Below are positions 4,210 to 60,141 of a stretch of 64,000 nt of DNA, in pieces. The notes below the pieces were generated by a model. It was not told the origin of the DNA. It made no database searches and worked only from the letters and a program-made list of their open reading frames with translations. The stretch covers positions 250,976,001 through 251,040,000 of the forward strand of contig NC_091473.1 of the NCBI RefSeq assembly GCF_036971445.1, read 5' to 3'. The first letter of the stretch is position 1, and each line of letters opens with the position of its first letter. A program made the translations under genes and the position numbers. The DNA is from Narcine bancroftii. Taxonomy: Eukaryota.

Positions 4210-7200
4210 TGAATATGGCCATTAGGTCTCTGGCACGGAGTCTGGTACTGCGGCTAAGAAGGGAAGGGAGGAGAAGAGGTGAGCTGTAGTGATAGGGGAT
4301 TCCATAGTTAGGAGAACAGACAAGAGGTTCTGTGGAAGAGATCGAGTATCCTGGATGGTACGTTGCCTCCCTGGTGCCAGAGTCTGAGATATCTCACATC
4401 GAGTTCACAGCATTCTCAGGAGGGAGGGTGAGCAACCAGATGTCATGGTCCATGTAGGTAAGAAGGGTAAGGATGTCCTGCAAGGAGAATTCAGGGAGTT
4501 AGGCACTAGGTTGAAGGACAGAACCTCCAATGTCGTGATCGCAGGATTGCCACCCGTGCCACGTGTGAGTAAGGTTAGAAATAGGAGGATAATGCAGTTT
4601 AACACGTGGCTATAGACATGGTGCAGGAGGGAGGGCTTCATGTTTCTAGATCATTGGGCTTTCTTCCAGGGAAGGTGGGTCCTGTTATGATGTGATGATA
4701 TGCATCTGAACTGGAAGGGGACTTGTATCCTTCTGGGAAGATTTGCAAGGGCTGCTCCAGTGGGTTTAAATTAGATTTGCAGGGGGAGGGGAACCAGAGT
4801 GCCAGAGCAGTTAGAGGAGTAGGGGAAGGAAAAGAGGATGTGAAAATTTCATGCACCATTAGAAATTAATTGGTTTAATGTGGTGGAAATGTTCGCAGAT
4901 GCATCTATTTCAATGCAAGGAGTGTTGTAGGAAAGGCAGACAAGCTTAGAGCATGGATTAGCATGTGGAATTATGACATTGTGGCCATTAGTGAAACTTG
5001 GTTCCAAGAAGGGCAGGACTGGCAGATCAATAATCTGGGCTTCTGTTGTTTTAAACATAATAGAATAGGGGGGGAGAAATGAAAGGGGGAGGAGTGGCAT
5101 TGCTCATCAGAGAAAAAAAATCACAGCTGTGCTCAGGTAGGACAGAGCAGAGTGCTCATCTACTGAGGCTATATAGGTGGAGCTGAGGAATGGGAAAGGT
5201 GTGATCACATTCATGGGGTTATATTATAGACCGCCCAATAGTCAGTGAGAATTGGAGGAGCAAATCTGTGGAGAGATAGCAGTCAACAGCAGGAAATAAG
5301 TTTGTGAAGGTCAGAGATTTTAACTTTCTACATATTGACTGGGACTCCCATACTGTAAAAGGGCTGGATGGCTTGGAGTTTGTTAAATGTGCTCAGGAAA
5401 ATTTTCTAAATCGATATATAGAGGTACCAACTAGAGAGAGCACAATACTGGATCTCCTGTTAGGGAACGAGACAGGTAACAGAAGTATGTTTAAAGGAAC
5501 ATTTTGTGTCCAGTGATCAGTTTCAAGTTAATTATGGAGAAGGATAGGTCTGAGCCTTAGATTGAGGTTCTAAATTGGAGAAAGACCAATTTTGAGGAAA
5601 TGTGAAAGGATCTAGAATGTGTGGATTGGGATAAATTGTTTTCGGGCAAGGATGTGCAAAGTAATGGAGAACCTTCAAAAGTGAAATTTTGAGAGTTCAG
5701 AGTTTGTCTGTTCCTGTCAAGATCAAAGGTAAGGTTAGAAGGCACAGGGAATTTTGGTTTTCGAGGGATATTGGGGATCTGGTTCAAAAGAAGAGATGTG
5801 TATAACAGGTAGAGGCAATGTGGAGCAAATTAGGTTCTTGAGGAGTATAAAAAATGCAAGTTAAACCTAAAGAAAGAAATCAGGAAGACTAAAAGAAGAT
5901 ATGAGGTTGCTTTGGAAACAATGCGAAGGAAAATCCTACGGGTTTTCTAGGCATATTAACAGCAAAATGATAATAAGGGACAAAATGGGTCCCCTTGAAG
6001 ATCAGAGTGGTCAGCTTCGTATGGAGCCAAAAGAGATGGGGGAGGATTTAAATGTTTTTTCCATCAGTATTCACTCAGGAAACAGGCACAGATCATGGGA
6101 AATAAGCATGGAAACTAAACAGATTAAAGAGGAGGAAGTGCTGGCTGTCTTAAAGCAAATATAGGTGGATAAATCCCCAGAGATAGTTCCTCAGACCTTG
6201 AGGGAGGCTAGTGTGGAAATTGAAGGGACTCTGGCAGAAATATTTAAAATGTCCTTAGCCACGGGTGAGGTGCCAGAGGATTGGAGGGTAGCTCATGTTG
6301 TACCATTGTTTAAAAAAGGCTCTAAAAGTAAACCAGGAAATTATAAGCCGGTGAGCCTGATGTCAGTAGGGTAAATTATTGGAGGGTGTTCTGAGAGATT
6401 GGACAGCCAAGGGATGATTAAGAATAGTCAGCAGGGCTTTGTGTGTCATCGGTCGTGTTTAACAAATCTTATAGGGTTTTTCAAGAAGATTACCAAGAAA
6501 GTAGATGAAGGAAAGACTGTGGATGTTATCTATATGGACTTTAGTAAGGTCTTTGACAAGGTCCCACATGGGAGGCTAGATCAGAAGGTTCAGACACTAG
6601 GTATCCATGGAGATGTTGTAAACTGGATTAGAAATTGGCTGAATGGGAGAAGACAGAGTGGTAGTGGATGGTTGCTTCTCAGACTGGAGGCCTGTGATCA
6701 GTGGTCAGGGATTGGTGCTGGGACCATTGTTGTTTGTGGTCTATATCAATGATCTGGATGATAACGTGGGAAATTGGATCAGCAAATTTGCTGATGACAC
6801 TAAGATTGGAGACGTTGTGGACAGCGAGGAAGGGTTTCAATGCTTGCAGAGGGATCTGGGCCAACTGGAAAAATGGGACAGAAAATGGCAGATGAAATGT
6901 AAATGTAGACAAGTGTGAGGTGTCTGCATTTTGGAAAGACAAACCATGGGTGGTCATACACAGTAAATGGTCGGGTACTGAGGAGTGTAGAGGAACAAAG
7001 GGATCTGGGAGTACAGATACATAATTCCATGAAAGTGGCGTCACAGGTAGACAGGGTTGTAAAGAAAGCTTTTGGCATCTTGGCCTTCATAAATCAAAGT
7101 ATTGAGTATAGGAGTTGGGATGTTATGGTGAGGTTGTATAAAACATTGGTGAGCCCAAATTTAGAGTATTATATGCAGTTCTGGTCGCCAAACTACAGGA

Positions 7201-7695
7201 AGGATATCAGTAAGATTGAGAGAGTGCAGATAAGATTTACTAGGATGTTGACGGGTCTTCAGGAGTTGAGTTACAGGGAAAGATTAAGCAGGTTAGGACT
7301 TTATTCCTTGGAGCATAGAAGAATGAGGGGAGATTTGATAGAGGTTTACAAAATTAAGAGGTGTATAGACAGAGTAAATGTGAGTAGGCTCTTTCTATTT
7401 AGATTAGGAGAGATAAATACAAGAGATCATGGGTTTAGGGTGAATGGAGAAAGGTTTAAGGGGAACATTAGGGGGAACTTTTTCCTCTCAGAGAGTGGTG
7501 GGAGTGTGGAATGAGTTGACATCTAACATGGTAAATGTGTGCTCACACTTAAATTACAAAAGTAAACTGGATAGATACCTGGATGGGAGAGGTCTGAGGG
7601 GTTATGGAATGGGTGCAGGTCAGTGGGACTAGCAGTATAATGTTTTCGGCACAGACTAGAAGGGCTGAACATACTGTAATGTTTTAAGGGTCTAA
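4210..7695 (+). mobile_element. Near full-length decayed CR1 LINE (SGNH-esterase ORF1, APE endonuclease, RT) in a gene A intron
   Basis: VVIGDSIVR, DFNF..IDW, VPEDWRVAHVVPLFKKG, YMDFSKVFDKVPH, KFADDTK; many frameshifts and stops. Confidence 0.92.
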
Positions 7696-7696
7696 T

Positions 7697-8070
7697 AAGG
7701 GGAGATTTGATAGAGGGAGGTATTTAAAATTATGAGGGGGATAGACAGAGTAAATGTATATAGTCTTTTTCCACTGAAGATAGGTGAGATACATGGGTTT
7801 AGGGTGAAAGGGAAAAGTTTAAGGAGAACATGAGGGGCAACTGCTTCACAGAGAGGGCAGTGGGAGTGTGGAATGAGCTGCCAGCTGAAGTGGTGAATGT
7901 GGGCTCAATTTTAAGTTTTAATAAGAATTTGGTCAGGTACATGGATGGGAGAGGTATGGCGGGCTATGGACTAGGTACAGGCCAGTGGGACTAAGCAAAC
8001 CAAAAATGGTTCAGTACTGACTAGAAGGGCTGAAAGGGCTCATTTGTGTGCTGTAGTGTTCTCTGGTTCT
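7697..8070 (+). mobile_element. Second CR1 3'-end fragment directly behind the first
   Basis: Diverged repeat of the 7325-7690 sequence (aggggagatttgatagagg...gtgggacta). Confidence 0.8.
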
Positions 8071-12060: not shown

Positions 12061-12367
12061 AAAATCTTTTCTCCCACATACCACCTTAAGCAATCCCTTA
12101 CTATCACAGAGCACCTATGGCAATAGGGAATACTTAGAGTGGTACGTAAGTGGAAAGAAAAAGGTTGAGTACCACTGCTTTAAGGCTTCTCTTCCATTCC
12201 ACATACTTAAAGAAGCCCTTACCATCTGTTTTTATATTGTGCTGGTTTTCCCTCTTAGTTTATTTTTTCCTCTCTCTTTGCAAACGTTTATGGCATCTTC
12301 TATTGATTTCTAAATTCGTCCGTTCCTTGGATTCATTACTAATGGTGCTTCTCACTTCTCTTCAAAG

Positions 12368-22700: not shown

Positions 22701-23868
22701 AGTCAAATAAATGGGTCTGACCTGGTTGCCTACATTATGTTTATTACTAGATTGAGTAACTGTTGTTTTATCTTGTATTCGTGTGTGTGAGTTCTTAGAC
22801 AACACATGGATGAAGGAAAAAATTCTTTACTTTAACTTGGTGTTATTACCAGCACCGAGGCAGGCCATGAGGTTGCAAACCTCCATTACAGATACAGCAT
22901 AACGTGTGTCAGCCACCTGCTGGCAGACAAGTCTAATCAAACAGTAAGGCATTGCTAGTTGCTTTGCAACCACGATCACTATCATTACATCTTCCTTTCT
23001 TAAAACAAAAATAGTTTACTTTTAACTAACATGTTTTCTTTGGATAACTCTGCAATTTTAATTTTAACATCAGGAACTTACTTTTTGCCACCATCAGTAA
23101 GTAGAATTTCAAATTTAGAGAACCTGGGTAGTTGTAACGTACACCCAAAATTATCCAAAAATAGGGCTTTAATTTGATAATAAGAAAAATGAGACTTTGA
23201 AGATATTTCATATTTCTCTTTCATTCTTTGGAATTAAATTAAAAAATCCTGCTTCATAACAATCTTCCACTAATTTAATGCCTTTCTGTTCCCACAACTT
23301 CAAAAGTTGATTAAGTGTAAAAGGTAAAAGCTTATTTTTAAGCAAAGGAGTTATACCTGAAATTTTACCTTGAGTACCTATAATTTCATTTTTTTATTCC
23401 ATAATTTCATTAAATGATTCAACAAAGGATAATTATAATTATAATTACTTAATAACTGAGAATTCCATCTATAAATAAACTGACCCATCTTCTTCTCACA
23501 AATCTAATTCAATATCAGCCCATATCAAAAGTTTATCCTGTTAATAAATTTCAACTGTGCTGATTCATAATAATCTGAAATTTAGGAAGCTGCAAACCTT
23601 CTAATGAAGTTAATTTCTGTAATGACACCCTCACCATTTTATTTTCCCACAAAAACCTCCTCACTAGAGCATCCAGATCTTTAAAAACATTTTGAGGAAT
23701 CTTGCAAGGAATAGATTGAAAAAGATATTAAATTGGAGGAAACATATTCATTTTAATACAATTAACATGTCCTATAAATGGTATAGGCTAATCTTGCTAC
23801 CGATTCAAAACATTTTTAAATTTAGACAGTGAAGATAGATAGTTCAGTTCATATAAATGATTATAATT

Positions 23869-26800
23869 CTTTTCTTTCTTCTTTGTTTCTTTGGCTTGGC
23901 TTCGCAGACGAAGATTTATGGAGGGGTAATGTCCACGTCAGCTGCAGGCTCGTTTGTGGCTGACAAGTCCGATGCGGGACAGGCAGACACGGTTGCAGCG
24001 GTTGCGGGGGAAAATTGGATAGTTGGGGTTGGGTGTTGGGTTATTCCTCCTTTGTCTTTTGTCAGTGAGGTGGGCTCTGCGGTCTTCTTCAAAGGAGGTT
24101 GCTGCCCGTCGAACTGTGAGGCGCCAAGATGCACGGTTTGAGGCGATATCAGCCCACTGGCGGTGGTCAGTGTGGCAGGCACCAAGAGATTTCTTTAGGC
24201 AGTCCTTGTACCTCTTCTTTGGTGCACCTCTGTCATGGTTGTCAGTGGAGAGCTCACCAAATAACACGATCTTGGGAAGGCGATGGTCCTCCATTCTGGA
24301 GACGTGACCTACCCAGCACAGTTGGATCTTCAGCAGCGTGGATTCGATGCTGTCGGCCTCTGCCAGCTCGAGTACTTCGATGTTAGGGATGAAGTCACTC
24401 CAATGAATGTTGAGGATGGAGCGGAGACAACGCTGGTGGAAGCGTTCTAGGAGCCGTAGGTGATGCCGGTAGAGGACCCATGATTCAGAGCTGAACAGGA
24501 GTGTGGGTATGACAACGGCTCTGTATACGCTAATCTTTGTGAGTTTTTCAGTTGGTTGTTTTTCCAGACTCTTTTGTGTAGTCTTCCGAAGGCGCTATTT
24601 GCCTTGGCGAGACTGTTTTCTATCTCGTTGTCGATCCTTGCATCCGATGAAATGGTGCAGCCGAGGTAGGTAAACTGGTTGACCGTTTTGAGTTTTGTGT
24701 GCCCGATGGAGATGTGGGGGTAGCTGGTAGTTATGGTGCGGAGCTAGCTGATGGAGGACCTCAGTTTTCTTCAGGCTGACTTCCAGGCCAAACACTTTGG
24801 CAGTTTCCGCAAAACAGGACGTCAAGCGCTGAAGAGCTGGCTCTGAATGGGCAACTAAAGCGGCATCATCTGCAAAGAGTAGTTCATGGACAAGTTGCTC
24901 TTGTGTCTTGGTGTGAGCTTGCAGGCGCCTCAGATTGAAGAGACTGCCATCCATGCGGTACCGGACGTAAACAGCATCTTCATTGTTGAGGTCTTTCATG
25001 GCTTGGTTCAGCATCATGCTGAAGAAGATTGAAAAGAGGGTTGGTGCGGGGGGGTGTGGCAAGATGGCGTAAGGATCAGACGTGCCTTCCAGTCCTCTCC
25101 TGACTCTATCTTATTGTTTTGTCTAGAAATGCCCGTTAAAATTCTTTAAAAGTTTAGATCATTTCAGTGCTGTTAATTTAACTTATGATGGTACAATTGG
25201 TGAAAAAGAGCAAAAAAAAAACGACAACAGATCATCAAAAAACATTTTCCAAAAGTTCAAGTTTTGGAGCCTACCTGCAGGAAAGACACCAGGACTCAGC
25301 GTGAAATGGATCCCAGGAGAGAGGTACAGTGTTCGGTAGAGCCCCCTAAAGAGGGCGCCAAACAGCCTTTAGAACAAAGAGTTACTCAAAGGCATTTGTC
25401 AGCTGTAGAGGTGGCGCTGCAAACTGCATCTCTTGAGATAGAAGAACCAATACAACTTGATGTACTGGGAGAACTTAATACATTATGGACTGGGGAAAAC
25501 CCCAGCCAGTGTCCTCCAGTCTCTGCTGGAGAGGCTGTGGCTGGGGTTTCCACACGCAGTCATACTACAAGGAAGGCAACCAGAATGAAGGAAGGAACAG
25601 AAGATCCTTTGGTTATGCAGAAGAAGCAGGAATCTGTTGAGCCAAAATCTCTTCCTATTGAAAAGATTTTTGTGAATCTTGAATCTAAATGATCTTATAC
25701 AATGCAGGGATTATCCAAGATTATGACTGAACTTGGTACTAGGTTTAATACTCTGGTGAAAATACATTCTCAACAGATGGCTGAGTTTGGAGCTTTTAAG
25801 CTTGAAGTGAGAGGTAAATTTAATTCGTGTGAAGAAGATATAGATGAAATATGGGATCAAGTTTTTGATGTGACCAAAATGGTCGAAGACTTACAAACTC
25901 AAAATAAAAATTTGGTGAAAAAGATTGATTATTTGGAAAACCAATTCAGACGGAACAATATAAAGATTATTGGTTTGCCGGAAGGTATGGAGGGACCAGA
26001 CCCAAGAAAAAATTTTTTTACTGAATGGATTCCGCAGGTGCTGGGTCAAGAACATTTTCCGGAAGGTATAATACTGGAACGTGCTCACAGAGCCTTGCGT
26101 AGAAGACCTATTTCAGGTCAAAGTCCAAGACCTGTTTTGGTTCGTTGCTTGAATTATTATGACAGAGAAATAATTTTACGAGTGGCTATTAGAAATGCAC
26201 AACAGAGAAAATCACCCTTGATGATTCAAAATAATCGAGTTTTCTTCTATGCGGATTTGAGTCAAGAAGTTATGTTCCAACGACGGGAATTCAATCCTGC
26301 TGAAGAGTTGTTGTGGAAGAAAGGTTACAAGGCAACCTTTAGATATCCAGCTGTTTTGAAGGTTTTTCAAGATGGTTACCAACCAAAGTTCTTTGATTCT
26401 CCAAAGGCAGCTATAGCATTTGCTCAAGAGCTGCCAATTACTCAGTTTCAACAGAGACATAGTCCGCCGCGATCTCTAAGGAGACAAGAGATGGAAGAAA
26501 GGAACCGCGCTCCAAGAAGGAATGGTTGCAATGGTGACTCGGCAGTTGGAGCTGATTAAAAGAAGAGTTGTCCTTTTTTTTTCTAATTTTTTTTTAAAAA
26601 AGGGATATTAAGTAATGATGATGTTAGTTTAAGATGAAGTGAGAGTTGGGGGAGAGAACTGGATAGGCACTATTTCCTGAAAGTCATCTGCTATGTGTGA
26701 GTTATCTCACACCCATTTTTTTGGGGGGAGTTACCGCATTGCGCAGTTTAGACGGGAGGGGGTATTTTTAACCTCCAACCCGTTTTTTTTCCTTTTTTTT

Positions 26801-27941
26801 TGTATTATTAGATTAAAGAGTGAAGGGGTTTTTTTTTGTTTAAATATTTAAAAAAAAACATAAGCAAGTATTTGATTGTTTAAAAAACTAAAAATTGATG
26901 TGGTTTTTTTTGTAAAGTTTATTCAGTAGATAAGGAATATCTGAAATTTAAATGTGAATGGGATGGATAAGTTTTTTTTTTATATATTTTTTCTTTAACT
27001 TTAAGGTGAAAGGAGTGGTAATTCTGGTGTATATTATTTTGCTATTTTAGTTATAGAACGAAGGGAATAATGGTGAAAGTTATAAATTGAATTGTACAAT
27101 TCTTAATGAGGCTTGAATTTTGTTTGTGGTTTATGCTCCATTTGTTGAAGATATAGATTTCGTTGTAGTTTTGTTTTTATTATTTGGATATCTGAATTTT
27201 AACGTAATGATTGGGGATATTTAAATGTGGTATTGGAGCTTTTATTGGATAACTATTCAAGAGTAAAAGGGAAAAATGGTGGAAGAGTACTAAAATTGAA
27301 TTGTACAATGTTTAATGAGGTTTGAATTTTGTTTTAAGATGGTGGTTTATGTGACTAATATGATGATAGATGTGAAGTTAGTTGATATTTGGTGAAGGTT
27401 TATCTCTATAGAGAAAGGTTTTTTTTCGTTTTTTTTCATGCTACCATTTTTTTTTAAGAATTGATTATTGTTTAAGAAATTTTGATAGATAATGTTACTA
27501 ACTTTACTAATTTTTTATATTGTTTGAGTTAAATATGTTTCATCTTAACTCCGTTTGTTAAATATATGCATTTAAGTTTGATTTAAATATGTTTTTTAAG
27601 TCTGATATCTTAGTATTAATTACTTTTCTTTTTGTTAGTATTTTAATCGGTTATGTTTTTGTTTTTTTTGTAAGTGGGTTTTTTTTCTCACATATATTAT
27701 TAACTTTATTAATTCTTCACTCTTTATTTTGGGGGGAAAGGGGGGTTGGACTAATTTGAGTTGGGTTATTAATGTGTAATAATTATTGGGGAGGGTATAG
27801 TTTATTTAGATTACTGCTACTGTATTGTAATTTTATTATTTTATTCTTAATGTTTTTTTAATGTAATCCTATATGTTATTCATGTTATAAAATCTTAAAT
27901 AAAGTTTTTAAAAAAAAAGAAAAGAGGGTTGGTGCGAGAAC
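23869..27941 (-). mobile_element. 5'-truncated RTE-clade LINE, interrupted by the HAL1-like element
   Basis: LAPTLFSIFF, ELLFADDAAL, MEDHRLPKIVLFGEL; AAAG-type tail; TSD ataatt at 23863-23868 and 27942-27947. Confidence 0.92.
25049..27918 (+). mobile_element. ORF1-only L1 derivative (HAL1-like), complete from 5' end to poly(A)
   Basis: 18-bp TSD gaaaagagggttggtgcg (25031-25048, 27919-27936); 5' G-run plus CAAGATGGCG; L1 ORF1p motifs RRNNIKIIGLPEG, ERAHR, FYADLS, RYPA; AATAAA and A-tail; no RT. Confidence 0.9.
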
Positions 27942-29199
27942 ATAATTACTATCTATCTTAATACCTAAAAACTTAATCCGATCTGACCACTTAAATTTGA
28001 CAATAGGCCTGCACAGAGAATAATCCATTTCAGCGAAAGGCATAATCTCACTCTTTTCCCAGTTGATTTTATAACCTGATACTTCACCGTATACTGCTCC
28101 AATCAATCATGAAAACTACTCAAAAATTTCAAAGGTTGCACTAAATTTATCAAAACTTCATCTGAAAACAAGGATATCAATTTTTAATAAAACCTGCTTA
28201 ATCTACATGAATTAAATCTGGTAAAAAATTTAGTTAATCTATTAGCCAGAACCTTGGCAACAATTTTATAATCTACATTCAATAAAGAAATAGGTCTATA
28301 AGACCCAGCTTTTAATGGCTCCCTATCCTTCTTAAGAATAACTGTAATAATTGCTTTAGGAAAAGATTCCAGAAAAGAACAAATCTCTGTCGCATGTTTC
28401 AATACACCCATCAATAAAGGAATTAATAGGTCTTGAAATTCTTTATAAAATTCAGAAGTAAAACCATCATCTCCTGGAGAATTCCCACTAGCCATAGATC
28501 GAAGTGCATCTATTAGTTCTTTAACAGTAAAGGAAGCATCTAAATCCTTGATATCTTTATCCTTCAAAAAAGAAAAAGCTAAATCAGATTTTAAAAAATG
28601 ATCAGTTTTAGCTTCATCTTCCTATACTTCAGAAGTATACCAATTTCTCATAAAATTTATGAAAATCATTATTAATTTCCTGAGGTTTATATGTAATCAT
28701 TGAATCAGATCTAATAGCATTTATTGTTCTTGAAGTTTGTTCTGTTTTCAACTGCCAAGCTAAAACTTTATGGGCTCTCTCGCCCAACTCATATCGCCAT
28801 TTAGTTCTCTGTAATAATTTCTCAAATTTATAAGTTTGTAATGAATTATACCGTAAATTCATATTAACTAAGTGTCTTTCTTAACTTCCATAGAATATCA
28901 TTGCAAATCCTTTTCCAAAATTTCTATCTCCTTCTCCAATTTACTAACCTCAGCCATATGTTGTTTCTTAATTTTAGTAGTATAATTTGTCCCCGTAAGT
29001 TGGCTTTTAAGGCATCCCATAAAAACAAATTTTCTATCTACTGAACCTATATTTACTTTCAAAAAAAGCTGTATTTGATTCCTTATAAATTCAGGATTTT
29101 TCAACAATAAAGAATTAAATCTCCAACGATAAACATTCTCAATTCTCTCCGAATCTGTACACGTAATTAACAACAAAGAACGATCAGACAAAATACAGT

Positions 29200-30107: not shown

Positions 30108-30750
30108 TGTTGAGCCAAGAGAACCCCAAAACCCAGCAGCAATAGAAATTCACCAAGACAAATGGTTACTTAAATAAAAGTTGCTTTTAATTATCTTTAA
30201 ACATGAAAAAAGAATCAAACTTTAACTTATCTCTATACTTAACTAACCCCCTTCTAATTCTAAGCGCAAATGTTTGTAATGTGTGTGTAAATTTAAGAAA
30301 AGTTCTTTGGTTCACAGTTCAATCTCACTTCTATTCTTCCAAGTTCACTGGTTGCAGGCAATTCTTATACCGTGCACAGAATTTAACGTGTATAAAGTTC
30401 ACCAGGCTTCGGTGCTTAAAAGGTAAATGTTTACCGCTCAGGTAGTTCTTGAAGGGTTTGCAGAGAGAGATTTGTTGTTCCAGGATTTCCACAACTGAGG
30501 TACCAATATTAGTCACCTCAATGTCTCACTGATGAAACTTGCCCCATCAGGGTTCTCCAGATGATAGCCTCTTTCTTTCAGGCTATCAAAGAGTTCCTTT
30601 CTGTTCCACTTATTCCAAGAGAAACATCAGACAGATAGCACTTCCAGCCATCCACTGCTCTGGAGCTTTCCGTTTCAACAAGCTTTCTGGCTTGCACTGT
30701 TCAGCTGCTTTCAACGTCAGACACACACTGGCTGAGAGAGCTTGGTCTCA

Positions 30751-32853: not shown

Positions 32854-33819
32854 TTTTTTTTTTTTTTTTTTTTCTTTTTCTTTGGCTTGGCTTCGCGGAC
32901 GAAGATTTATGGAGGGGGTAAAAAAGTCCACGTCAGCTGCAGGCTCGTTTGTGGCTGACCAGTCCGATGCGGGACAGGCAGACACGATTGCAGCGGTTGC
33001 AAGGGAAAATTGGTTGGTTGGGGTTGGGTGTTGGGTTTTTCCTCCTTTGCCTTTTGTCAGTGAGGTGGGCTCTGCGGTCTTCTTCAAAGGAGGTTGCTGC
33101 CCGCCAAACTGTGAGGCGCCAAGATGCACGGTTTGAGGCGTTATCAGCCCACTGGCGGTGGTCAATGTGGCAGGCACCAAGAGATTTCTTTAGGCAGTCC
33201 TTGTACCTTTTCTTTGGTGCACCTCTGTCACGGTGGCCAGTGGAGAGCTCGCCATATAATACGATCTTGGGAAGGCGATGGTCCTCCATTCTGGAGACGT
33301 GACCCATCCAGCGCAGCTGGATCTTCAGCAGCGTGGACTCGATGCTGTCGACCTCTGCCATCTCGAGTACCTCGACGTTAGGGGTGTGAGCGCTCCAATG
33401 GATGTTGAGGATGGAGCGGAGACAACGCTGGTGGAAGCGTTCTAGGAGCCGTAGGTGGTGCCGGTAGAGGACCCATGATTCGGAGCCGAACAGGAGTGTG
33501 GGTATGACAACGGCTCTGTATACGCTTATCTTTGTGAGGTTTTTCAGTTGGTTGTTTTTCCAGACTCTTTTGTGTAGTCTTCCAAAGGCGCTATTTGCCT
33601 TGGCGAGTCTGTTGTCTATCTCATTGTCGATCCTTGCATCTGATGAAATGGTGCAGCCGAGATAGGTAAACTGGTTGACCGTTTTGAGTTTTGTGTGCCC
33701 GATGGAGATGTGGGGGGGCTGGTAGTCATGGTGGGGAGCTGGCTGATGGAGGACCTCAGTTTTCTTCAGGCTGACTTCCAGGCCAAACATTTTGGCAGTT
33801 TCCGCAAAGCAGGACGTCA
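32854..33819 (-). mobile_element. Young 5'-truncated RTE LINE in gene B intron 1
   Basis: Uninterrupted 295-aa ORF (FTYLGCTIS, LLFGSESW, RWMGHVSRM), A-rich tail, very similar to the copy at 23869-25048. Confidence 0.92.
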
Positions 33820-38632: not shown

Positions 38633-39364
38633 GTGAGAATATGACTGTGATCTTCAAACTCAATTATTGACGAACTGAAGTCATGATTAGATGGTTCCGC
38701 TGTTCTAATGGGACAATATATTGTATGTGCCATTGTACAAGACGATCTGAAAATTTTACTTTTAAAAAAAAAAATCAGGGTCATCCCACACAGAGTCTAA
38801 AATTCTTACCTTGATGACAGTCTTCCCGCCAGCTCCAAGGCAATCTCGTTCCCCCATTTAGTCACTTGGAAAGTCTCAGCACTCCTCCGTGGGGTCCGTC
38901 CGCCCACTCCACCCGCTCTCAACACTGTACAGCCTTTAAACGGCCTGTTAATGACAGTGATTGGTTTTAAAATATCCAAATAAAATTTAAATGATCAATT
39001 GTTATTAAAATGTTGTAATTGGCTTATAACAGCATTCACTGGGCAGCGATAATAGCCATATTTTGTGGATGGGGGGGGGGGGGGGGGGAGTCGTCTTCTT
39101 CAAAGTTTCTCATTCAAAATATGCATTTTAGGTGAAAATTCCAGGGTCTTCCAATACAGAGTTGCCCTATACAACGGCATATAGGGTATGTGTCCTTAAT
39201 GTCACACTCCTCTATTTAATCCTCCCTTCAAACTTAACTTGAGGAAGGGCTCAAGCCCAAAATGTCAGTCATATATCTTTATCTCGTACGGATGCTGAGA
39301 AACTAGCCGTTCCTCCAGCTTTTCTGTGTTTTTACACTTATTTAATCTTCCCATTTATTTAATC

Positions 39365-39737
39365 CAGTGATTTTTGAACTTTTTCTTTCCACTCATATTC
39401 CACTTTAAGTAATCTCTATGCCATCAGTGCTCAGTGATTAGTAAGGGATTGCTTAAGGTGGGATGTGAGTGGGAAGAACAAGTTTGAAAACCACTGTTTG
39501 TATCGTCCCTAATTGACTCGTTATGTGCACGGTTTCAGAACTCCAAAGGAAATGGACCAATGACAATTTTTCTCAAGAAAAATATTTCAGTAACAATTGG
39601 GTCTAGAGCAGTGATTCTCAACCTTCCCTTCCCACCCACATCCCACCTTAAGCAATCCCTTACTAATCAGAGCCCCGATGGCCTAGGGATTACTTAAAGT
39701 GGTATGTGAGTGGAAAGAAAAAGGTTGAGAACCACTG
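39365..39737. mobile_element. Composite hAT (Charlie-like) MITE: two ~130-bp units plus a spacer
   Basis: CAGTG..CACTG termini at 39365-39496 and 39609-39737; outer flanks atttaatc/ctttaatc; single units at 52320-52441 and about 12066-12177. Confidence 0.8.
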
Positions 39738-41092
39738 CTTTAATCGATGTAGAAGTCAGAGAGCAAGACTCTGTCAATTGGGGACATTCCATGAGCTCCT
39801 CATTCGATTTCTTTCTGATTCCCTTCCATCGTCAGAAGGGATGATTGTCAGCAAGGTCAGAATTCAATGCCCTACTTGGAGCTGTCCATGATGCTGAGCA
39901 ATCCCAGGGGTGAAGGTCCTTCCAACCATGTTACTGGGAGAGGAACCCAAAAGGATAAATTCATTGCTCCTCAGCTCTGACCATCCCAATAGAGTGGATC
40001 TCCCAGTGGCCACCCATTCCAACTCCCCATCCCATTTCCCTTGCTGACATGTCTGTCTATAGTCTCCTGCATTGCTAGACTGAGACCACCCACAAATTGG
40101 AGGAACGGCACCTCATCTTCTGACTGGGTGTCCTCCCACTGGATGGCATTAATATCAACTTCTCGGGCTTTGGTTAAAAACCTCCCCATAACCTCTCCCC
40201 CCTCCACTTCTTCCCCCAGCTCTGTCTCTCCCTTTCGCACAGACATGATGAATTCTCACCTCTCCCTTTACCATATCCAACTAACACCTTCTGTTGGTCC
40301 AGAATCCTCCTCCAGCCAGCGCTGTATGATTTCTGAGATTTCTTGCTTCTGGCTTATTCCTTGAAGAAAGGCCCAGACCCAAAATGTTGGCAACATATCT
40401 TTGTCTCCTATACACATTGAAAAGACCCACCATCTCCAGACTTTTGTATTACACTCTGTCACATGTGCCCAGGTGTGGTGAGAAAGTTTCTTTCGCAACC
40501 AATCCAGCGAGACATCCCATACCTAGTGCAGCAAGCAAGTCACAGTACTGATGTGCAGTTAGAGGCATCAGTGAGGAAAAAAGTAATGTTATTTTATAAG
40601 TGTAAGGTCCCTTCAGGAAAATAGTGAGAAAGAAACAGTCCTCGAATCAGGCAGTGCGTAATCTCACACTCCCGAATCTTCTCCCCACCACCCAGGGATG
40701 GGGTGAGGGTGACAAGAGCATGGCCAGGGCGGGGTTCATCTTTTAATGTGTTGCCTGCTTTCCCAAGGCAGTGGGAGGTATCGAAGGAGGGGAAAGAGGA
40801 TGGTGTGATGGCTTGAGATCCATTTATCTCGCTCTGGAGTTTCTAGCAGTGTTGAACGAAGTAGTTCCCTCACCACAAAGTGATGTGTCCTCTCAGGATA
40901 TATTCCATGCTAAGTCTATTTAAGATGACAACTTAGTATGGTACATCCTCAAGAGGTTCCGGTGAGACATCTCTCAGCAGCTGTGTTTAAGACTAAAACT
41001 GCCTCCTGCTTCAATTGACAAACTGTTATTTCATTTGGCCGGTGTTTTCCACAAAGCCTCAATCTCATTCAATCTATTTCAATTGTTTATAG

Positions 41093-42380: not shown

Positions 42381-42980
42381 TGCTTCCTGCAGCATGGCAA
42401 GCTGGAATCTTTTTTAAATACCATTTTGAAGACAGATTGTGAGTTCTGAGTTCAGCCTGTTGAAAACCCTTGTGGTCCATAGAAGAGGAAATGGGTGGCT
42501 CGAGTATTTCACCTGAAATAAGGGAAACAAAAAGGAGCTCTGTGGTGACCTGCAGAAAAGGTGATCAATTGGAAAACCCTGATGGGGCAAGTTTCTTTGG
42601 TAAGACATTGAAGTGGCTGATCGGAGGGAATCAGTGTGCGTCCAACGAGCAATCTCTCTGAAACCAAAGAGAACCTTCCTGAGCGGTAACCACTTACTTT
42701 TAAACACCAGCACTTGGTGAAAATTCAGAGAAGTTAAATTCTGTGCACAGCATAAGAATTGCCTGATATTGGTGAACATGGAGGAGTGAGAAGTGAGATT
42801 GGACTGAACTTATACACATTACATACATGTGCTCTTAGAATGAGAAGGGGGTTAAGTTGATAGTAATAAGTCAAATTTTGATCCCATTTTTATGTTTAAA
42901 GAAAATTAAAAGTAATTTGTGATTAAGTAACCATTTGTCTTGGTGAATTTTTATTGCTGCTGGGTTTTGGGGCCCGAGCA
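42012..42980 (+). mobile_element. LTR-family copy with (GA)n
   Basis: Reverse-complement homologue of 30108-31148 (ttggtgaattt.tattgctgctgggttttgggg). Confidence 0.75.
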
Positions 42981-45638: not shown

Positions 45639-45769
45639 GTAAGAATGCAGTGAGTGTGAAATTGCACATTGTTCCTCTACTTAATCCTTTAAAACAATGG
45701 AAAAATTACAAATATTGTTTAGTTCATTTACCTCAGTTGACAATACAATTTGGAAAACATGCTTCTCAG

Positions 45770-46650
45770 ACCAGAAGCCTGTGACTAGTGGCTTTTCACA
45801 GGAATCAGTGCTGGGACTATTGTTGTTTGTGGTCTATATCAATGATCTGGAATGATAATGTGGGAAAATGGATTGGCGTTTGTTGATGACACTAAGATTG
45901 GAGGCGTTGTGGACAGCGGGGAAGGCTTTCAAATCTTGCAGAGGGATTTGGACCAACTGGATCAATGAGCTAGAAAGTGGCAGAAGGAATTTAATGCAGA
46001 AAAGTGTGAGATGTTGCATTTTGGAAGAACAAACCAAGGTAGGACATACACAGTAAATGGTCGGGCACTGAGAAGTGCGGAGGAACAAAGGGATCTGGCG
46101 ATACAGATACATAATTCCCTGAAAGTGGCGTCACAGATAGACAGGTTTGTAAAGAAAGCTTTTGGCATCTTGGTCTTCATAAATCAAAATATTGAATACA
46201 GGAGTTAGGATGTAATGGTGAGGTTGTACAAGACATTGGAGAGGCCAAATTTGGAGTATTGTGTGCAGCTTTGGTCGCTAAACTACAGGAGGAAGAATAT
46301 CAGTAAAATTGAAAGAGTGCAGAGAAGATTTACTAGGATGTTGATGGGTCTTCAGTTGACTTACAGGGAAATGAGAGCATAGAAGAATGAGGGGAGATTT
46401 GATAGAAATATACAACATTATAAGGGGTATAGACAAGTAAATGTGAGTAGGCTCTTTCCACTTAGGAGAGATAAATGCAAGAGGACACAGCTTTGAAGGA
46501 AAGGTTTAAGGAGAACATTAGGGGAAACGTTTTCACTCAGAGAGTGGTGGAGGTGTGGAATAAGCTGACATCTGACGTGGTAAATGCGGACTCACTCTTA
46601 AGTTATAAAAATAAACTGGATAGGCACATGGATGGGAGAGGTCTGGATGG
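45770..46650 (+). mobile_element. CR1 3' fragment
   Basis: Closely matches 6670-7595 (LHFGRTNQGRTYTVNGRALRSAEEQRDL). Confidence 0.88.
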
Positions 46651-48123: not shown

Positions 48124-49820
48124 GAAGGGACTGATACTGTGCTGAGGGGAGAGAGCGGGGCAGTGGGATCAGTGTGGGGACTGACATGAGGCTGTGGGGA
48201 GAGTGGGGCAGTGGGATCAGTGAGGGGACTGAGACTGAGCTGTGGGGAGAGAGCGGGGCAGTGTGATCAGTGTGGGGACTGACATGAGGCTGTGGGGAGA
48301 GTGGGGCAGTGGGATCAGTGAGGGGACTGAGACTGGGCTGTGGGGAGAGAGTGGGGCAGTGTGATCAGTGTGGGGACTGACATGAGGCTGTGGGGAGAGT
48401 GGGGCAGTGGGATCAGTGAGGGGACTGAGACTGGGCTGTGGGGAGAGAGTGGGGCAGTGGAATCAGTGAGGGGACTGAGACTGGGCTGTGGGGAGAGAGC
48501 GGGGCAGTGGGATCAGTGAGGGAACTGAGACTGGGCTCTGGGGAGAGAGTGGGGCAGTGGGATCAGTGAAGGGACTGAGACTGGGCTGTGGGGAGAGAGC
48601 GGGGCAGTGGGATCAGTGAAGGGACTGAGACTGGGCTGTGGGGAGAGAGCGGGGCAGTGGGATCAGTGAGGGAACTGAGACTGGGCTCTGGGGAGAGAGT
48701 GGGGCAGTGGGATCAGTGAAGGGACTGAGACTGGGCTCTGGGGAGAGAGCGGGGCAGTGGGATCAGTGTGGGGACTGAGACTGGGCTGTGGGGAGAGAGC
48801 GGGGCAGTGGGATCAGTGTGGGGACTGAGACTGGGCTGTGGGGAGAGAGCGGGGCAGTGGGATCAGTGTGGGGACTGAGACTGGGCTGTGGGGAGAGAGC
48901 GGGGCAGTGGGATCAGTGAGGGAACTGAGACTGGGCTCTGGGGAGAGAGTGGGGCAGTGGGATCAGTGAAGGGACTGAGACTGGGCTCTGGGGAGAGAGC
49001 GGGGCAGTGGGATCAGTGTGGGGACTGAGACTGGGCTGTGGGGAGAGAGCGGGGCAGTGGGATCAGTGTGGGGACTGAGACAGGGCTGTGGGGAGAGAGC
49101 GGGGCAGTGGGATCAGTGTGGGGACTGAGACTGGGCTGTGGGGAGAGAGCGGGGCAGTGGGATCAGTGTGGGGACTGAGACTGGGCTGTGGGGAGAGAGG
49201 GGGGCAGTGTGATCAGTGTGGGGACTGACATGAGGCTGTGGGGAGAGTGGGGCAGTGGGATCAGTGAGGGGACTGAGACTGGGCTGTGGGGAGAGAGGGG
49301 GGCAGTGTGATCAGTGTGGGGACTGACATGAGGCTGTGGGGAGAGTGGGGCAGTGGGATCAGTGAGGGGACTGAGACTGGGCTGTGGGGAGAGAGGGGGG
49401 CAGTGGAATCAGTGAGGGGACTGAGACTGGGCTGTGGGGAGAGAGTGGGGAAGTGGGATCAGTGAGGGAACTGAGACTGGGCTCTGGGGAGAGAGTGGGG
49501 CAGTGGGATCAGTGAAGGGACTGAGACTGGGCTGTGGGGAGAGAGCGGGGCAGTGGGATCAGTGTGGGGACTGAGACTGGGCTGTGGGGAGAGAGCGGGG
49601 CAGTGGGATCAGTGTGGGGACTGAGACTGGGCTGTGGGGAGAGAGTGGGGCAGTGTGATCAGTGTGGGGACTGAGACTGGGCTGTGGGGAGAGAGCGGGG
49701 CAGTGGGATCAGTGTGGGGACTGAGACTGGGCTGTGGGGAGAGAGCGGGGCAGTGGGATCAGTGTGGGGACTGAGACTGGGCTGTGGGGAGAGAGCGGGG
49801 CAGTGGGATCAGTGTGGGGA
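48124..49820 (+). repeat. G-rich minisatellite, 50-bp unit, about 34 copies
   Basis: Unit gggagagagcggggcagtgggatcagtgtggggactgagactgggctgtg with 48-49-bp variants. Confidence 0.97.
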
Positions 49821-50984
49821 CCTTATCTCGGTGTTAGATAAGGTATACTTGTATTCTTTTTCAACTTACTATAGTGATAGATCTTTACCTCCCATGGACG
49901 CCGACACGTGCAGAGTACTCCACCATTTCTGTGTTTTCAAACAGAAATATGACAGCAGACCTGATGCAAAACCCCAGTTTAGTGTTTTTGTTGTTTTCAA
50001 AATATTTTCCTTTCATCCCAAACCCTTTCTCTCCTGATGGTGCCAATTCTTACCAAAATTTCAACCCTGCAGCAACCAATTAAAGGACACGCTGAATCGT
50101 TGACCCCCTCCACCCCCACCCACTGTAGACAATGAGTTGAAAGGCTTCCTTCTGCACTTCATGTTCCGAAGATTTCATGTTTAAACTGTCACTGCCCAAG
50201 GGCAAGAGAATGGCCCAGAAAAACTAACTTTCTGAGTCTTCTGCTGCAGACCCGACAGCTCCGTTCGGGTGCTAAACAGTGTTTGTAAGTAAAAAGTTTG
50301 CAACCATGGGCCTGTGCCCAAGGTGGCGGCACCTGCGCTCGGCCCCAAAGATTCGGTGCACCAGAAATGAGGATGGCACGCCCCCACCCCCGACATTGAG
50401 AAGGTGAAGTAAAGGAGTTGGCGAAGTAGAGGAGTTGGCCCTACAGGACTGTAACCACGATGGCGGGCCAGCCAGGGGCTCAGCGGCTGAGGGACACTCA
50501 CAGGCTGTGGGCAACTTGCACGCGGGGCGTAGGCTGCTGGAGACTGGCTGATGGCAATCAGGTATTGGAGTTTGGATTCGAGAGGGTGCCAAGAGCAAGA
50601 AAAATCTTCTGAACGGCCGCAGGTGCTGAATGGTTCTTGAACGTATCGGAGGTTTGGATCTGGAGCTTGCGTTGCTGATGGTTTGAGGGATTTTCCTGGA
50701 ATCTGCTCAGATAATAGTGGGATCAAGTTCAAGATTCGCAAAATAATGTTGCCCTTCTATAAAACTCTGGTTCAATTGCATTTTGCCTAATGTGTTCAGT
50801 TCTGGTTGCCTCATTACCGGAAGGACGCTTTGGAGAGGGTACAGAGATTTACCAGGATTGGAGGACGTGTTTTACAAGGCAAAGTTAGCACTAGTAGGGG
50901 CTTTCCTCTTTGGAGCAAAGAAGGATGAGAGGTGACTTAATAGTGGTGCAAAAGATATGTGTTAATAGTGATATTTAGGTAAAG

Positions 50985-51093: not shown

Positions 51094-52781
51094 AGGTAAA
51101 GGTTTAGTTCTATTTCTTAATAAAAAATGTCTCAGTAAATTATAGAGTTAAAATATTGTATATGTATTCTTAGTAAGTTAGTTGTGGGCTGGTACAGGGT
51201 CACACGCAGGTCACCACATTTACAGATAGGCCATTAAACTCAGAAAGACTGTTTATTTTTAAAGTTGACGTATCTTGGAAAGACAGAGCTAATGGAATTG
51301 AAGTGGGTCTTAATTATTCAAGAACAATGGAGTGTTTGCTTTATTAAAAATAGAAGCATGTAAATACTCATTAAGAACTGCTGAAGGAAGCCATCTGTTT
51401 TTAAATTAAACCACTAAAGGCCTCTTGAACAAGAGAAATGAAATTCAGAGCCATGTGCTTAAACCTTTGAAAAAAAGTGAGGCAAACTTTTGGAGTCATG
51501 TCATCTACAAGACAGAGGTGTGAAGATCACATGGTTTACAAGAAACTGCGGTTTGCAACTGTTTAAAATTCCAATAACTGTCATGTGATTTCAAAGAATT
51601 GGAACTGAGTCATTGATGATGTAAATGGTCATATGATTTGGAGAAATATATTGTCAAATTCAGTCATTTTGAATGAAAAGATTGCAAAAGTTGATAAGTC
51701 AAGACATCCTGGAAAGACAGGAGTAAAACAGCAATCTCTAGGAAGAGAAGGAGATACTGGTCGGTACTATCTCAATAGCCAGAACACCACTGTTAAGACC
51801 TTTGTGAATCAAAGGGTTGAATTACAGTAACCAGAATAGGTGCTGTTATGTGACTCCTAAAAGTGACCTACAGAAATAAGTGGATTTTGAAAGAGGTACC
51901 ACTTCTCGACTGCTCTTTTGAAAATAAAGGGTGCAGCCTCAGCTTGGAAGGAACTCCAGAATTCTCAAGAAGTTAAAAGGAAGTTAAAGCTTTACAATGT
52001 GAAAGTTAAAGAAACCTCTTCCCGAGAAAATGAGATTTGAGAGATTGAACAGTCTAAGGACTAAATCAATGTTAATAAACACTTCATTATTGCCTTAGGA
52101 ACCAATTTAAAAGAACTTGATGTTTCATAATCACCTCTGAAGTGCAATTTAACAGAACATCAAGTTCAACAAGACTTTAAAATACTGGCCCTTTTTACTT
52201 TTCAAACTCAAGTTTAAACTGAAATAGTTTGTACTTCAATACACACACACACACACACACTCTTATTCAATTACACTTGTGCATCATGGGGTTAAGCTTA
52301 GAGTTAAATTAGTTTAGAGCAGTGGTTTCAACCTTTTTCTTTCCACTCACATACCACCTTAAGTATTCCCTATACCATCGGTGCTCTGTGGTGTGATGCT
52401 CGGTGGGATGTGAGTGGGAAGAAAAAGTTTGAAAACCACTGGTCTAGCAGTTCATTGCCTGCACTGGAGCTTGTTATGTCAGGTGATGGTAAAAAACAGA
52501 ATTGATCAGGAACTTCAAAGGAAAATTGGATGGGCTGTCAATATATGTAACTTGATTTTTTTTTTGGTTAAAACTTGATAAGAGTTGAACGCCCCACAAG
52601 GGTAAAATGGAATTAAATTTTACTAAAAGGGTATTTCCTTGTTGGCAATTCTTGGAACTTCTCTATCTTCATATAAATTAATGGACAACCTGATCATTAA
52701 ACACAATTTGAGAATATGGGGACAATTTAGAAGGTTTTTTGGATTTCAGAATTTTTCTCTTATTTTCCCAATTACATCTGT

Positions 52782-53015
52782 AAGGGATACTGGAATGTGA
52801 GGAGTCAAGCAAGTGCTCATTAGAGATGAAGTATTATGGGTTAAATTAGGGTGAAGGGATGCTGGAATGGGAGGAGTCAAGTGCTCATTAGAGATGAAGT
52901 ATTATGGGTGAAATCAGGGTGAAGGGATGCTGGAATGGGAGGAGTCAAGCAAGTGCTCATTAGAAATGAAGTATTATGGGTTAAATCAGGGTGAAGGGAT
53001 GCTGGAATGGGAGGA
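52782..53015. repeat. Tandem repeat, about 3.3 copies of 68-72 bp
   Basis: aagggat.ctggaatg.gaggagtcaag...gtattatggg repeats at 52782, 52854, 52922 and 52994. Confidence 0.9.
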
Positions 53016-55196: not shown

Positions 55197-55870
55197 TGTT
55201 ATGAGCCCAGAGGACCCCAAAACCCAGCAGCAATAGATATTCACCAAGACAAATGGTTACTTAAACAAAAGTTGCTTTTAATTATCTTTAAACATGAAAA
55301 TAGAATCACACTTCAACTTATCACTATCAACTCAACTAACCCAACTTCGCCCCCTTCTAATTCTAAGTACACATGCATGTTATGTGTGTGTGTGTGTAAG
55401 CTCAGAAAAGTTTTTTGATTCACAATCCAATCTCACTTCTTATTCCTCCAAGTTCACTGGTTGCAGGCATTTCTTATACTGTGCACAGAATTTAACATTT
55501 ATAAAGTTCACGGCTTTAGTGCTTGAAAGGTAAATGGTTACCACTCAAGAAGGTTCTTGTCGGTTTTCAAAGAGAGATTTGTTGTAAGCTGGACACCCAC
55601 AACTGATTCTTTTTTTCAGCCACTTCAGTGTCTTGCTTAAGAAACTTTCCCCCTCAGGTTTCTCCAGATGATAACCTCTTTCTTTCAGGTCACCACAAAG
55701 TGCCTTTTTGTTTCTCTTATTTCAAGTGAAACATTAGTCAGGCAGTCCTCGCCTCTTGTATGGACCACAAGAGCTTTGACCAGGTACTCACAACCTGTCT
55801 TCCAAATGAGGTTTTCCACAAGCTTGTCCTGTTCCAGCCCCAGCTGTTTTGATTATTTAAAGTTTTGGCA
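55197..55870 (-). mobile_element. Partial LTR-family copy
   Basis: Direct homologue of 30108-30700 (ccccaaaacccagcagcaataga.attcaccaagac). Confidence 0.75.
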
Positions 55871-59965: not shown

Positions 59966-60141
59966 CAGGGGTGGCCAACCTTTTCATTTTTAATTTAGAT
60001 ATACAGCACGGTAACAGGCCACTTTGGCCCACGAGTAAGTATCGGGGATGGAGGTTAACTGGGTGGCACAGACGTGTGGGATGAAGTGGCCTGATTCGTG
60101 CTGCATGTCTAAATTAAAAATGAAAAGGTTGCCCACCCCGA
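59966..60141. mobile_element. Foldback MITE-like element: hAT-type ends plus inverted SINE tails
   Basis: caggggtggccaaccttttcatttttaatttaga... pairs with ...tctaaattaaaaatgaaaaggttgcccacccc. Confidence 0.7.

What the first reader, a model, noticed from the sequence alone, without database searches (positions are those of the whole stretch)
25049..27918. HAL1-like half-L1 that retrotransposed intact without ORF2
Seen: a 2.87-kb unit with an L1-type 5' end (G-run then CAAGATGGCG at 25060-25069), ORF1, about 1.35 kb of T-rich sequence, AATAAA and an A-tail, bounded by a perfect 18-bp TSD. There is no RT, and this copy's ORF1 has a stop at 25690 and N-terminal frameshifts. Known: CAAGATGGC is the YY1 site at mammalian L1 5' ends, and HAL1 elements are ORF1-only L1 derivatives mobilised in trans. 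Inferred: ORF1 is nearly intact while the ORF2 relic is far more decayed, so ORF2 was lost long before this insertion, implying a non-autonomous family under selection for ORF1p.
Basis: partly seen in the sequence, partly recalled or inferred. Interest (0 to 1): 0.72.

Follow-up and report, generated by a model that had tools for sequence, protein, structure and literature searches.

The report
Ray half-L1 with eroded endonuclease relic
This is a broken copy of an abundant jumping-gene family, likely from an electric ray, that keeps LINE-1's RNA-binding gene and a ruined endonuclease piece but no reverse transcriptase, so it likely spreads by borrowing that enzyme as mammalian half-L1 elements do, and its ruined piece has lost C letters on one strand, which may record the mutations of the copying cycle.

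Summary
Confirmed. 25049-27918 is a 2.87-kb L1 derivative between exact 18-bp target-site duplications: short 5' UTR, ORF1 (human L1 ORF1p match, E 1e-8; 92-96% identical to Narcine bancroftii proteins), spacer, a decayed endonuclease relic, probably the last 12 codons of ORF2, 3' UTR, AATAAA, A-tail. No reverse transcriptase. Contigs of eight public runs show a family: high-depth contigs carry the relic's stop codons unchanged, another copy bridges the deletion junction, and other copies start and end at the same places in other flanks. The ORF1 stop and its single frameshift are absent from most other copies. Contigs that join this 3' UTR to ORF2-like coding sequence point to a candidate partner L1. 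The relic has 5% C on the sense strand and shows C-to-T change against less decayed relatives (10 of 16 C, 2 of 15 G; small, by eye). It is a new, independently born member of the known half-L1 (HAL1) kind; I found none described in cartilaginous fish. The scan noted such elements before in other windows of this genome. Long-term selection on ORF1 is likely but a recent head swap is not excluded.

The parts
25031..25048 (+). Left target-site duplication (18 bp), part of the host RTE copy
25049..25184 (+). 5' UTR, 136 nt: G6, then CAAGATGGCG (25060-25069), the YY1-type motif of mammalian L1 5' ends; length like fish L1 5' UTRs (113-267 nt)
   Evidence: PMC5381506; other copies start at 25049/25050
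25185..26559 (+). ORF1 (N-terminal region, coiled coil, RRM, C-terminal domain); this copy has one frameshift (A-run 25212-25221) and one stop (25690-25692)
26560..26850 (+). Inter-ORF spacer with T-runs and predicted hairpins at 26690-26790 (z -3.56)
   Evidence: right edge approximate
26851..27547 (+). Decayed endonuclease domain of ORF2 (profile positions about 20-208 colinear; 5 stops, about 7 frameshifts; 5% C)
   Evidence: both edges approximate
27061..27351 (+). Internal duplication inside the relic: 27061-27135 and 27267-27351, 80% alike
27548..27586 (+). Probable last 12 codons of ORF2 and stop; deletion junction at 27547/27548
   Evidence: loose ends before 27548 in 4 of 8 runs as listed; not detected by the profile
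27587..27909 (+). T-rich 3' UTR with AATAAA at 27898-27903
27910..27918 (+). A-tail (9 nt)
   Evidence: depth falls from 172,867 to 79 past 27920 in X2
27919..27936 (+). Right target-site duplication (18 bp)
23869..25048 (-). Host: 5'-truncated RTE-type LINE (RT and C-terminal part), 93% identical to a second copy at 32860-33819; five more bases of it lie at 27937-27941
   Evidence: the name RTE is my recall from the protein, not a database label
27942..29194 (-). Older L1 ORF2 fossil into which the RTE inserted (6-bp duplication at 23863-23868 and 27942-27947); it continues at about 22950-23868

Best explanation
This is one dead copy of a young, high-copy LINE-1 derivative that has ORF1 but no reverse transcriptase and likely moves by using its own ORF1 protein on its own RNA while borrowing ORF2 protein from a complete L1. 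Shown: anatomy, family-wide ORF2 decay and deletion, many insertion sites, 5'-truncated copies, 1-2% distance of this copy from the family majority. Inferred steps: (1) an ancestral L1 lost about 3 kb of ORF2 between the end of the endonuclease and the last codons; (2) intact masters are transcribed from the 5' end and make ORF1p, which packs the RNA in cis; (3) ORF2p of a partner L1, probably the family that shares the 3' UTR at about 90%, nicks T-rich DNA and reverse-transcribes from the A-tail, leaving the TSD; (4) the unneeded endonuclease sequence was carried through many cycles and drifted to the C-poor, T-rich state seen at silent sites of L1-type genes in this window; (5) this copy landed 5-6 bases from the truncated end of an RTE copy that sits in an older L1, and most of its lesions arose afterwards.
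For: TSD, A-tail, AATAAA. ORF1p homology. Endonuclease relic above all 40 shuffles, other four ORF2 parts not; hmmsearch E 4.7e-5 over six frames. Family: whole element covered in X1, X5, X7 and the 3' half in X2, X8, X9; X9 records 27027-27161 and 27193-27310 at depth 1,417 and 1,876 with 0 differences, holding stops at 27048, 27054, 27114; X10 contigs tile 26877-27916 with overlaps of 30 nt or more and record 7 bridges 27548 with 61 nt on the short side and another flank after the tail. Single contigs at depth 9-13 join other RTE positions to 25049, 25050, 26841 and 27884. At the ORF1 stop 41,396 of 43,198 depth in X1 read another letter, and P0002, P0003, P0104 are open there and at the frameshift. 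ORF1 against a second ray subfamily: 37-40% identity N-terminal, 43-45% coiled coil, 78-82% RRM-CTD. Loose ends before 27548 (13, 10, 2, 1 contigs in X1, X2, X8, X9) read as F-Y-x-L-K-W in frame with the window's T-P-F-V-K-Y, like ORF2 C-termini (W-x-x-F-type motif in 15 of 27 proteins); such contigs follow the 3' UTR with 9 differences and 6 gaps in 136 nt (X8 record 22, X9 record 29).
Against: No genome was held, so no full-length sister copy was read end to end; contigs are short, none spans the element, and a T-rich gap at 26786-26876 is not tiled in X10. The 5' joints have only 22-24 letters on the short side, which the tool marks as weak. Summed depth is no copy number. The partner is seen only as loose ends of 23-72 letters (medians), so it may be a less deleted half-L1 rather than a complete L1. 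The 12-codon ORF2 scrap is not detected by the profile. The domain-wise test on ORF1 rests on four copies, three of them annotated because they are open. Pfam gave no L1 ORF1 family hit for this ORF1. Need of ORF1p in cis is taken from mammalian HAL1, not tested here.
Confidence: 0.82

Rival explanations
1. Half-L1 family whose intact ORF1 is a recent acquisition: an old ORF2-less element took the 5' UTR, ORF1 and spacer of a complete L1 by template switching, so the contrast between ORF1 and relic says little about long-term selection on ORF1 in the half element.
For: The spacer keeps C-containing hairpins (z -3.56; 19 C in 26649-26748 against 4-8 per 100 nt in the relic) although ORF2 is gone; a sharp fall in C at about 26850; at least two ORF1 subfamilies share the spacer (loose ends at 25788, 26397, 26681). 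An earlier AI note (e1-9191614) claims this for a 2,878-letter element of this genome.
Against: No listed joint or loose end leads from this spacer into an intact endonuclease (tables are cut, 357 and 1,329 loose ends not shown). Within the family the RNA-binding part changes least. Repeated capture of a working ORF1 would itself point to a use of ORF1p in cis, so this rival overlaps the best explanation.
Confidence: 0.3
2. ORF1p is not needed: the RNA is mobilised in trans like a processed pseudogene or SINE through its 3' end, and ORF1 is intact only because the family is young.
For: Copies differ by only 1-2%, too little to break most ORF1s; 3'-end depth is about 2-3 times ORF1 depth in X1.
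Against: The relic, carried in the same RNA, has 5 stops and about 7 frameshifts while the family's ORF1 has none that is shared by most copies; 3' excess is expected from 5' truncation.
Confidence: 0.1
3. An ordinary L1 copy that suffered a deletion and decay after insertion.
For: None beyond the broken ORF1 of this copy.
Against: Relic, stops and junction are shared with high-depth contigs and with another copy in another flank; the TSD is still exact.
Confidence: 0.01
4. For the C loss: selection on the RNA (U-rich, C-poor sequence favoured for export, stability or escape from host sensors) rather than a one-sided mutation process.
For: PMC7140322 and PMC9099904 (passages) argue that selection keeps clade-specific composition; RTE copies of the same window have the opposite skew (C/G 1.46-1.48).
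Against: G is kept while C is lost, in the relic, the 3' UTR and at four-fold sites of ORF1 (7 C, 20 G of 99) alike; places where other copies read T for the window's C are over-represented per base (10 of 106 C, 6 of 282 G in X2, p 0.003; not polarised, homopolymer edges included).
Confidence: 0.3

Closest known systems
HAL1 (half-L1) of placental mammals and marsupials, including rat RNHAL1 (Smit 1999; Bao and Jurka 2010). The 2010 paper is not held; seen only through passages of PMC5753468, PMC3627910, PMC2241872, PMC5786205
   Same: Non-autonomous L1 derivative, ORF1 only, ORF2 lost by deletion, both L1 ends kept, many copies, ORF1 coding capacity kept; the kind arose several times.
   Different: Cartilaginous-fish host and a ray/fish-type ORF1, so a separate birth; keeps a 0.7-kb endonuclease relic eroded far beyond ORF1; short fish-type 5' UTR and long spacer. 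Whether mammalian HAL1s keep such relics I could not read.
HeT-A (Drosophila, Jockey clade) and Ag-Sponge (Anopheles, CR1 clade), named with HAL1 as ORF1-bearing non-autonomous LINEs in a passage of PMC5786205
   Same: Encode only the ORF1-type protein and depend on an autonomous partner.
   Different: Other LINE clades; no telomere targeting is seen here.
Fish L1 families (PMC5381506, section 9 and passages)
   Same: 5' UTR 113-267 nt, long T-rich spacer, T-rich 3' UTR, AATAAA and A-tail.
   Different: Those are ORF2-intact; their 5' ends were given as GGACTTCCGGTT (zebrafish) or GGGGGCGTGGCC (frog), whereas this one has a G-run and the mammalian-type CAAGATGGCG.
APOBEC-edited retroelements (PMC3880073, passages)
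   Same: One-sided transition excess in a retroelement lineage.
   Different: That signature is G-to-A on the positive strand, with C-to-T used as negative control; here the excess is C-to-T on the sense strand.

Membership tests
HAL1-type (ORF1-only L1 derivative) | Encodes an L1 ORF1p | tested here: met
   Human L1 ORF1p PDB match E 1.2e-8; 3,147 relatives at E 0.001; broken in this copy, open in three sister proteins
HAL1-type (ORF1-only L1 derivative) | No ORF2p (no RT, no working endonuclease) | tested here: met
HAL1-type (ORF1-only L1 derivative) | Derived from L1 by deletion in ORF2, both ends kept | tested here: met
   Endonuclease relic; probable C-terminal scrap and 3' UTR shared with ORF2-like contigs
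HAL1-type (ORF1-only L1 derivative) | Multi-copy family that moved in the deleted form | tested here: met
   shared relic and junction, other flanks at both ends; no full-length second copy read
HAL1-type (ORF1-only L1 derivative) | Hallmarks of L1-type insertion (TSD, A-tail, T-rich nick site, 5' truncation) | tested here: met
   bottom strand reads TTTTC/AA at the 5' TSD edge; the TTTT/AA consensus is recalled
HAL1-type (ORF1-only L1 derivative) | ORF1 kept by selection over long times | tested here: inconclusive
   Domain-wise constraint (p 0.036); no dN/dS; head swap not excluded
HAL1-type (ORF1-only L1 derivative) | Mobilised in trans by ORF2p of an autonomous L1 | not testable with these tools
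   Candidate partner seen only as short contigs
Mammalian HAL1 families by descent | ORF1 descends from mammalian L1 | tested here: not met
   Nearest named proteins are from Narcine, Mobula, Hemitrygon, Hypanus and teleosts; no tree was built
Autonomous L1 | Intact ORF2 with EN and RT | tested here: not met
Named Repbase/Dfam family | Match to a deposited consensus | not testable with these tools

The most novel reading that the evidence does not exclude
L1 replication in this ray lineage carries a one-sided mutator that turns C to T on the RNA strand (deamination of the RNA or of the exposed sense DNA strand, or a biased reverse transcriptase), the mirror image of APOBEC3 editing, and the endonuclease relic of this independently born half-L1 is a neutral tape that records it cycle by cycle; this would make the open question of why L1 clades hold strand-biased base compositions directly testable in one genome.
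Probability: 0.35. Interest if true: 0.7.

Novelty: new member of a known kind. Interest (0 to 1): 0.42.

Why it matters
ORF1-only L1 derivatives are described in the passages I could read only from mammals. A young, abundant one born separately in a cartilaginous fish suggests that keeping ORF1 while borrowing ORF2 is a general way of life for vertebrate L1, and gives young natural copies for testing whether ORF1p is needed in cis. The family also carries a dead coding sequence through its cycles; its C loss on the sense strand bears on the unexplained strand bias of L1 composition (PMC9099904 calls the cause unclear). It is not a new kind of element, and this scan has met it in other windows of the same genome.

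Tried and rejected
No whole genome is held, so no BLAST count of copies. No second copy in the 64-kb window at E 0.01, and none of five other L1 3' ends printed from the window looked like the partner. Pfam found no L1 ORF1 family for this ORF1, P0001, P0102 or P0112. Rfam: 0 matches at E 1 in 24900-28100. Folding: only the spacer windows (z -2.42 and -3.56) of six windows chosen by eye beat shuffles; 5' UTR and three 3' windows did not. No RNA holder listed; the runs marked 'RNA?' are guesses and are not used as evidence of expression. Targeting of RTE copies: rejected as unproven, since RTE depth is about 40 times the element's in X1 and only RTE flank was laid. An Hsp90 fragment, reported in earlier notes for other half-L1s of this genome, was not searched for here; the T-rich part is accounted for by L1 pieces. 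Look-ups of earlier findings by sequence gave nothing, so I cannot say which earlier notes concern this same family. Literature searches for a half-L1 in sharks, rays or fish and for sense-strand C-to-T loss in retrotransposons listed no paper that describes either by title or abstract start; most listed papers were not opened, and Repbase, Dfam and subscription journals were not searchable. No supplements were read.
Full report
Observation. The same 18 bases flank it at 25031-25048 and 27919-27936 and occur nowhere else in the window. Inside are six G, CAAGATGGCG at 25060-25069, an ATG at 25185, a stop at 25690-25692, the end of ORF1 at 26559, AATAAA at 27898-27903 and nine A. The 288 codons after the stop match human L1 ORF1p (E 1.2e-8). 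The closest proteins are RefSeq models of the electric ray Narcine bancroftii, 92-96% identical over the shared part, so the host is likely that ray or a near relative. This copy has one frameshift in an A-run, one stop and three small in-frame indels.

Setting. The element lies on the plus strand inside a 5'-truncated RTE-type LINE on the minus strand, five or six bases from that copy's truncated end; the RTE (93% identical to a second copy in the window) carries a 6-bp duplication and splits the RT region of an older L1 fossil. The order is old L1, then RTE, then this element.

What the T-rich part is. I built a profile from the 27 of 88 hits that were 1,230-1,290 residues long (three named as teleost, the rest unnamed). 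A frameshift-aware alignment to 26560-27897 scored 31.1 for the endonuclease part against 15.7 +- 2.0 (maximum 20.8) in 40 dinucleotide shuffles; the four other parts, RT included, scored at shuffle level. hmmsearch placed profile positions 20-144 on one frame (E 4.7e-5, six frames searched) and weaker motifs in order up to position 208. A looser alignment gave 227 codons, 32% identity to the profile consensus, 5 stops and 7 frameshifts; its edges are over-extended. A 75-85 nt duplication sits inside the relic. At 27548 the window reads T-P-F-V-K-Y and a stop six codons later. Contigs that begin to match exactly there (13, 10, 2 and 1 in X1, X2, X8, X9) bring loose letters that read F-Y-x-L-K-W in the same frame (read by eye), the pattern near the end of L1 ORF2 proteins (15 of 27). 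I take 27547/27548 as the deletion junction; about 3 kb of ORF2 is missing. The profile alone does not detect this scrap.

Family. Eleven of 15 listed runs, from five studies and four organism labels, hold the stretch; I laid eight. The element is covered along its length in X1, X5 and X7 (24,000-138,000 summed depth in X1, rising to the 3' end; X11 has gaps), while single junction contigs have depth 9-13. Depth is no copy number, but the ratio suggests a thousand copies or more. Past the tail depth falls from 172,867 to 79 in X2. Two X9 contigs match the relic with no difference at depth 1,417 and 1,876, the first holding three stops of the endonuclease frame. X10 contigs tile 26877-27916, and one of 458 nt bridges the junction and ends in another flank. 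Three X1 contigs join other RTE positions to 25049 or 25050 and two to 26841 and 27884 (short sides of 22-26 letters, weak one by one). The longer contigs differ from this copy by about 1-2% both in ORF1 (8 in 514, 8 in 411, 13 in 594) and in the relic (3 in 325, 3 in 349, 6 in 475). At the ORF1 stop 96% of X1 depth reads another letter, and three sister proteins are open there and at the frameshift. So the family has an open ORF1 and a ruined ORF2. No contig spans the element and no genome was held.

Selection on ORF1. Against a second ray subfamily identity is 37-40% in the N-terminal part, 43-45% in the coiled coil and 78-82% in RRM-CTD. Among four copies of this family there are 26 changes in 596, 8 in 344 and 4 in 314 residue positions in the three parts (p 0.036 for the RRM against the rest). 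This fits constraint, on few and selected sequences. It does not show how long ORF1 has travelled with the relic. The spacer still folds (z -3.56 for 26690-26790, one of six windows chosen by eye) and keeps its C, which could mean a cis role or a recent swap of the front half; the swap idea comes from an earlier AI note and I could not test it.

Partner. Contigs with the ORF2-like loose end follow the 3' UTR with 9 differences and 6 gaps over 136 nt at depth 41-49, and a less decayed endonuclease relative (20 differences in 113 nt, depth 107) is present in X9. These may be one autonomous family or an older half-L1.

C loss. On the sense strand C is 5.3% in the relic (G 19.6%), 6.9% in the 3' UTR, 17% in ORF1, 10-11% in three L1 ORF2 fossil stretches, 17-18% in two others, and 30-31% in the RTE copies. 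Four-fold sites of ORF1 hold 7 C, 47 T, 20 G and 25 A; those of the host L1 ORF2 3 C of 51; those of RTE 67 C of 138. The relic has thus sunk to the level of silent sites. Single-base changes that separate consensus residues from the relic's codons are C-to-T in 27 cases against 13.2 +- 3.3 in shifted controls, G-to-A in 13 against 8.3 +- 2.2; three other L1 fossils show C-to-T 12 against 9.8, 21 against 15.2 and 8 against 5.0. In five short loose ends from less decayed relatives (1-4 contigs each; two compared with the first copy of the duplication), 10 of 16 C correspond to T in the window and 2 of 15 G to A, none at CpG (by eye; p 0.009). Among places listed as varying between copies, C>T outnumbers G>A per base (X2 10 of 106 against 6 of 282; X8 and X9, one study, 9 against 7), unpolarised. 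I saw the low C; earlier notes on other half-L1s of this genome then prompted the direction test. The direction is opposite to APOBEC editing as scored in PMC3880073 (passages). PMC7140322 and PMC9099904 (passages) report A-rich L1 in mammals and lizard, equal A and T in fish, no cartilaginous fish by the word 'shark', and favour selection; mutation and selection are not told apart here.

Mechanism. Most likely an intact master is transcribed from its 5' end, makes ORF1p that binds its own RNA, and recruits ORF2p of a complete L1 for target-primed reverse transcription at a T-rich nick; the TSD, tail and 5'-truncated copies are the traces. Anatomy and family are shown; transcription, need of ORF1p in cis and the partner are inferred from mammalian HAL1.

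Comparison and verdict. HAL1 is a non-autonomous L1 derivative that encodes only ORF1p and arose several times in mammals (passages of PMC5753468, PMC3627910, PMC2241872, PMC5786205; Bao and Jurka 2010 itself not held). This element meets the structural tests and is not descended from the mammalian families. Six searches listed no description in cartilaginous or bony fish, but repeat libraries were not searchable. Earlier notes of this scan report such elements in at least eight other windows of this genome. New member of a known kind; interest 0.42.

Noticed in passing
P0108, P0253, P0254 (proteins): RefSeq models from two stingrays (Hemitrygon akajei, Hypanus sabinus), 94% identical and open in both, join a TRIM RING-B-box N-terminus to a full L1 ORF1-like coiled coil, RRM and C-terminal domain: a candidate domesticated TRIM-ORF1 fusion. 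One search listed PMC12129022 on host-ORF1 fusions in tetrapods; its passages name no TRIM or stingray case. Gene models only, no transcript or locus checked.
   Followed up: partly
P0110, P0256, P0107: Other ray protein models named after host genes (ADAT1, TEFM, TADA1) cluster with or contain L1 ORF1; possibly gene-model run-ins or further fusions.
   Followed up: no
window 26690-26790: Predicted hairpins in the inter-ORF spacer (z -3.56); by eye the letters most other copies read at 26745 and 26777 pair better than this copy's. Kept although ORF2 is gone; a similar 20-nt motif recurs in the 3' UTR (26710-26729 and 27718-27737).
   Followed up: partly
window 22950-29194: Three-level nest: old L1 ORF2, RTE with 6-bp duplication, half-L1 with 18-bp duplication.
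   Followed up: yes
window 48127-49821: G-rich minisatellite, 34 copies of 50 bp, 92% matches.
   Followed up: no
window 39359-39743, related pieces at 12073-12183 and 52314-52447: 385-bp element similar to its own reverse complement, MITE-like, in three places; a second self-complementary stretch at 59968-60139.
   Followed up: no
window 30111-30634, 42422-42975, 55202-55808: Unidentified repeat of 500-600 bp in three copies, 72-82% alike.
   Followed up: no
window 6673-8068, 45760-46646, 59459-59698: Fragments of another LINE (RT C-terminal part, CR1-like by recall), with a local duplication at 7322-8034.
   Followed up: no
window 52782-53015: 72-bp tandem repeat, 3.3 copies, inside an L1 ORF2 fossil.
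   Followed up: no
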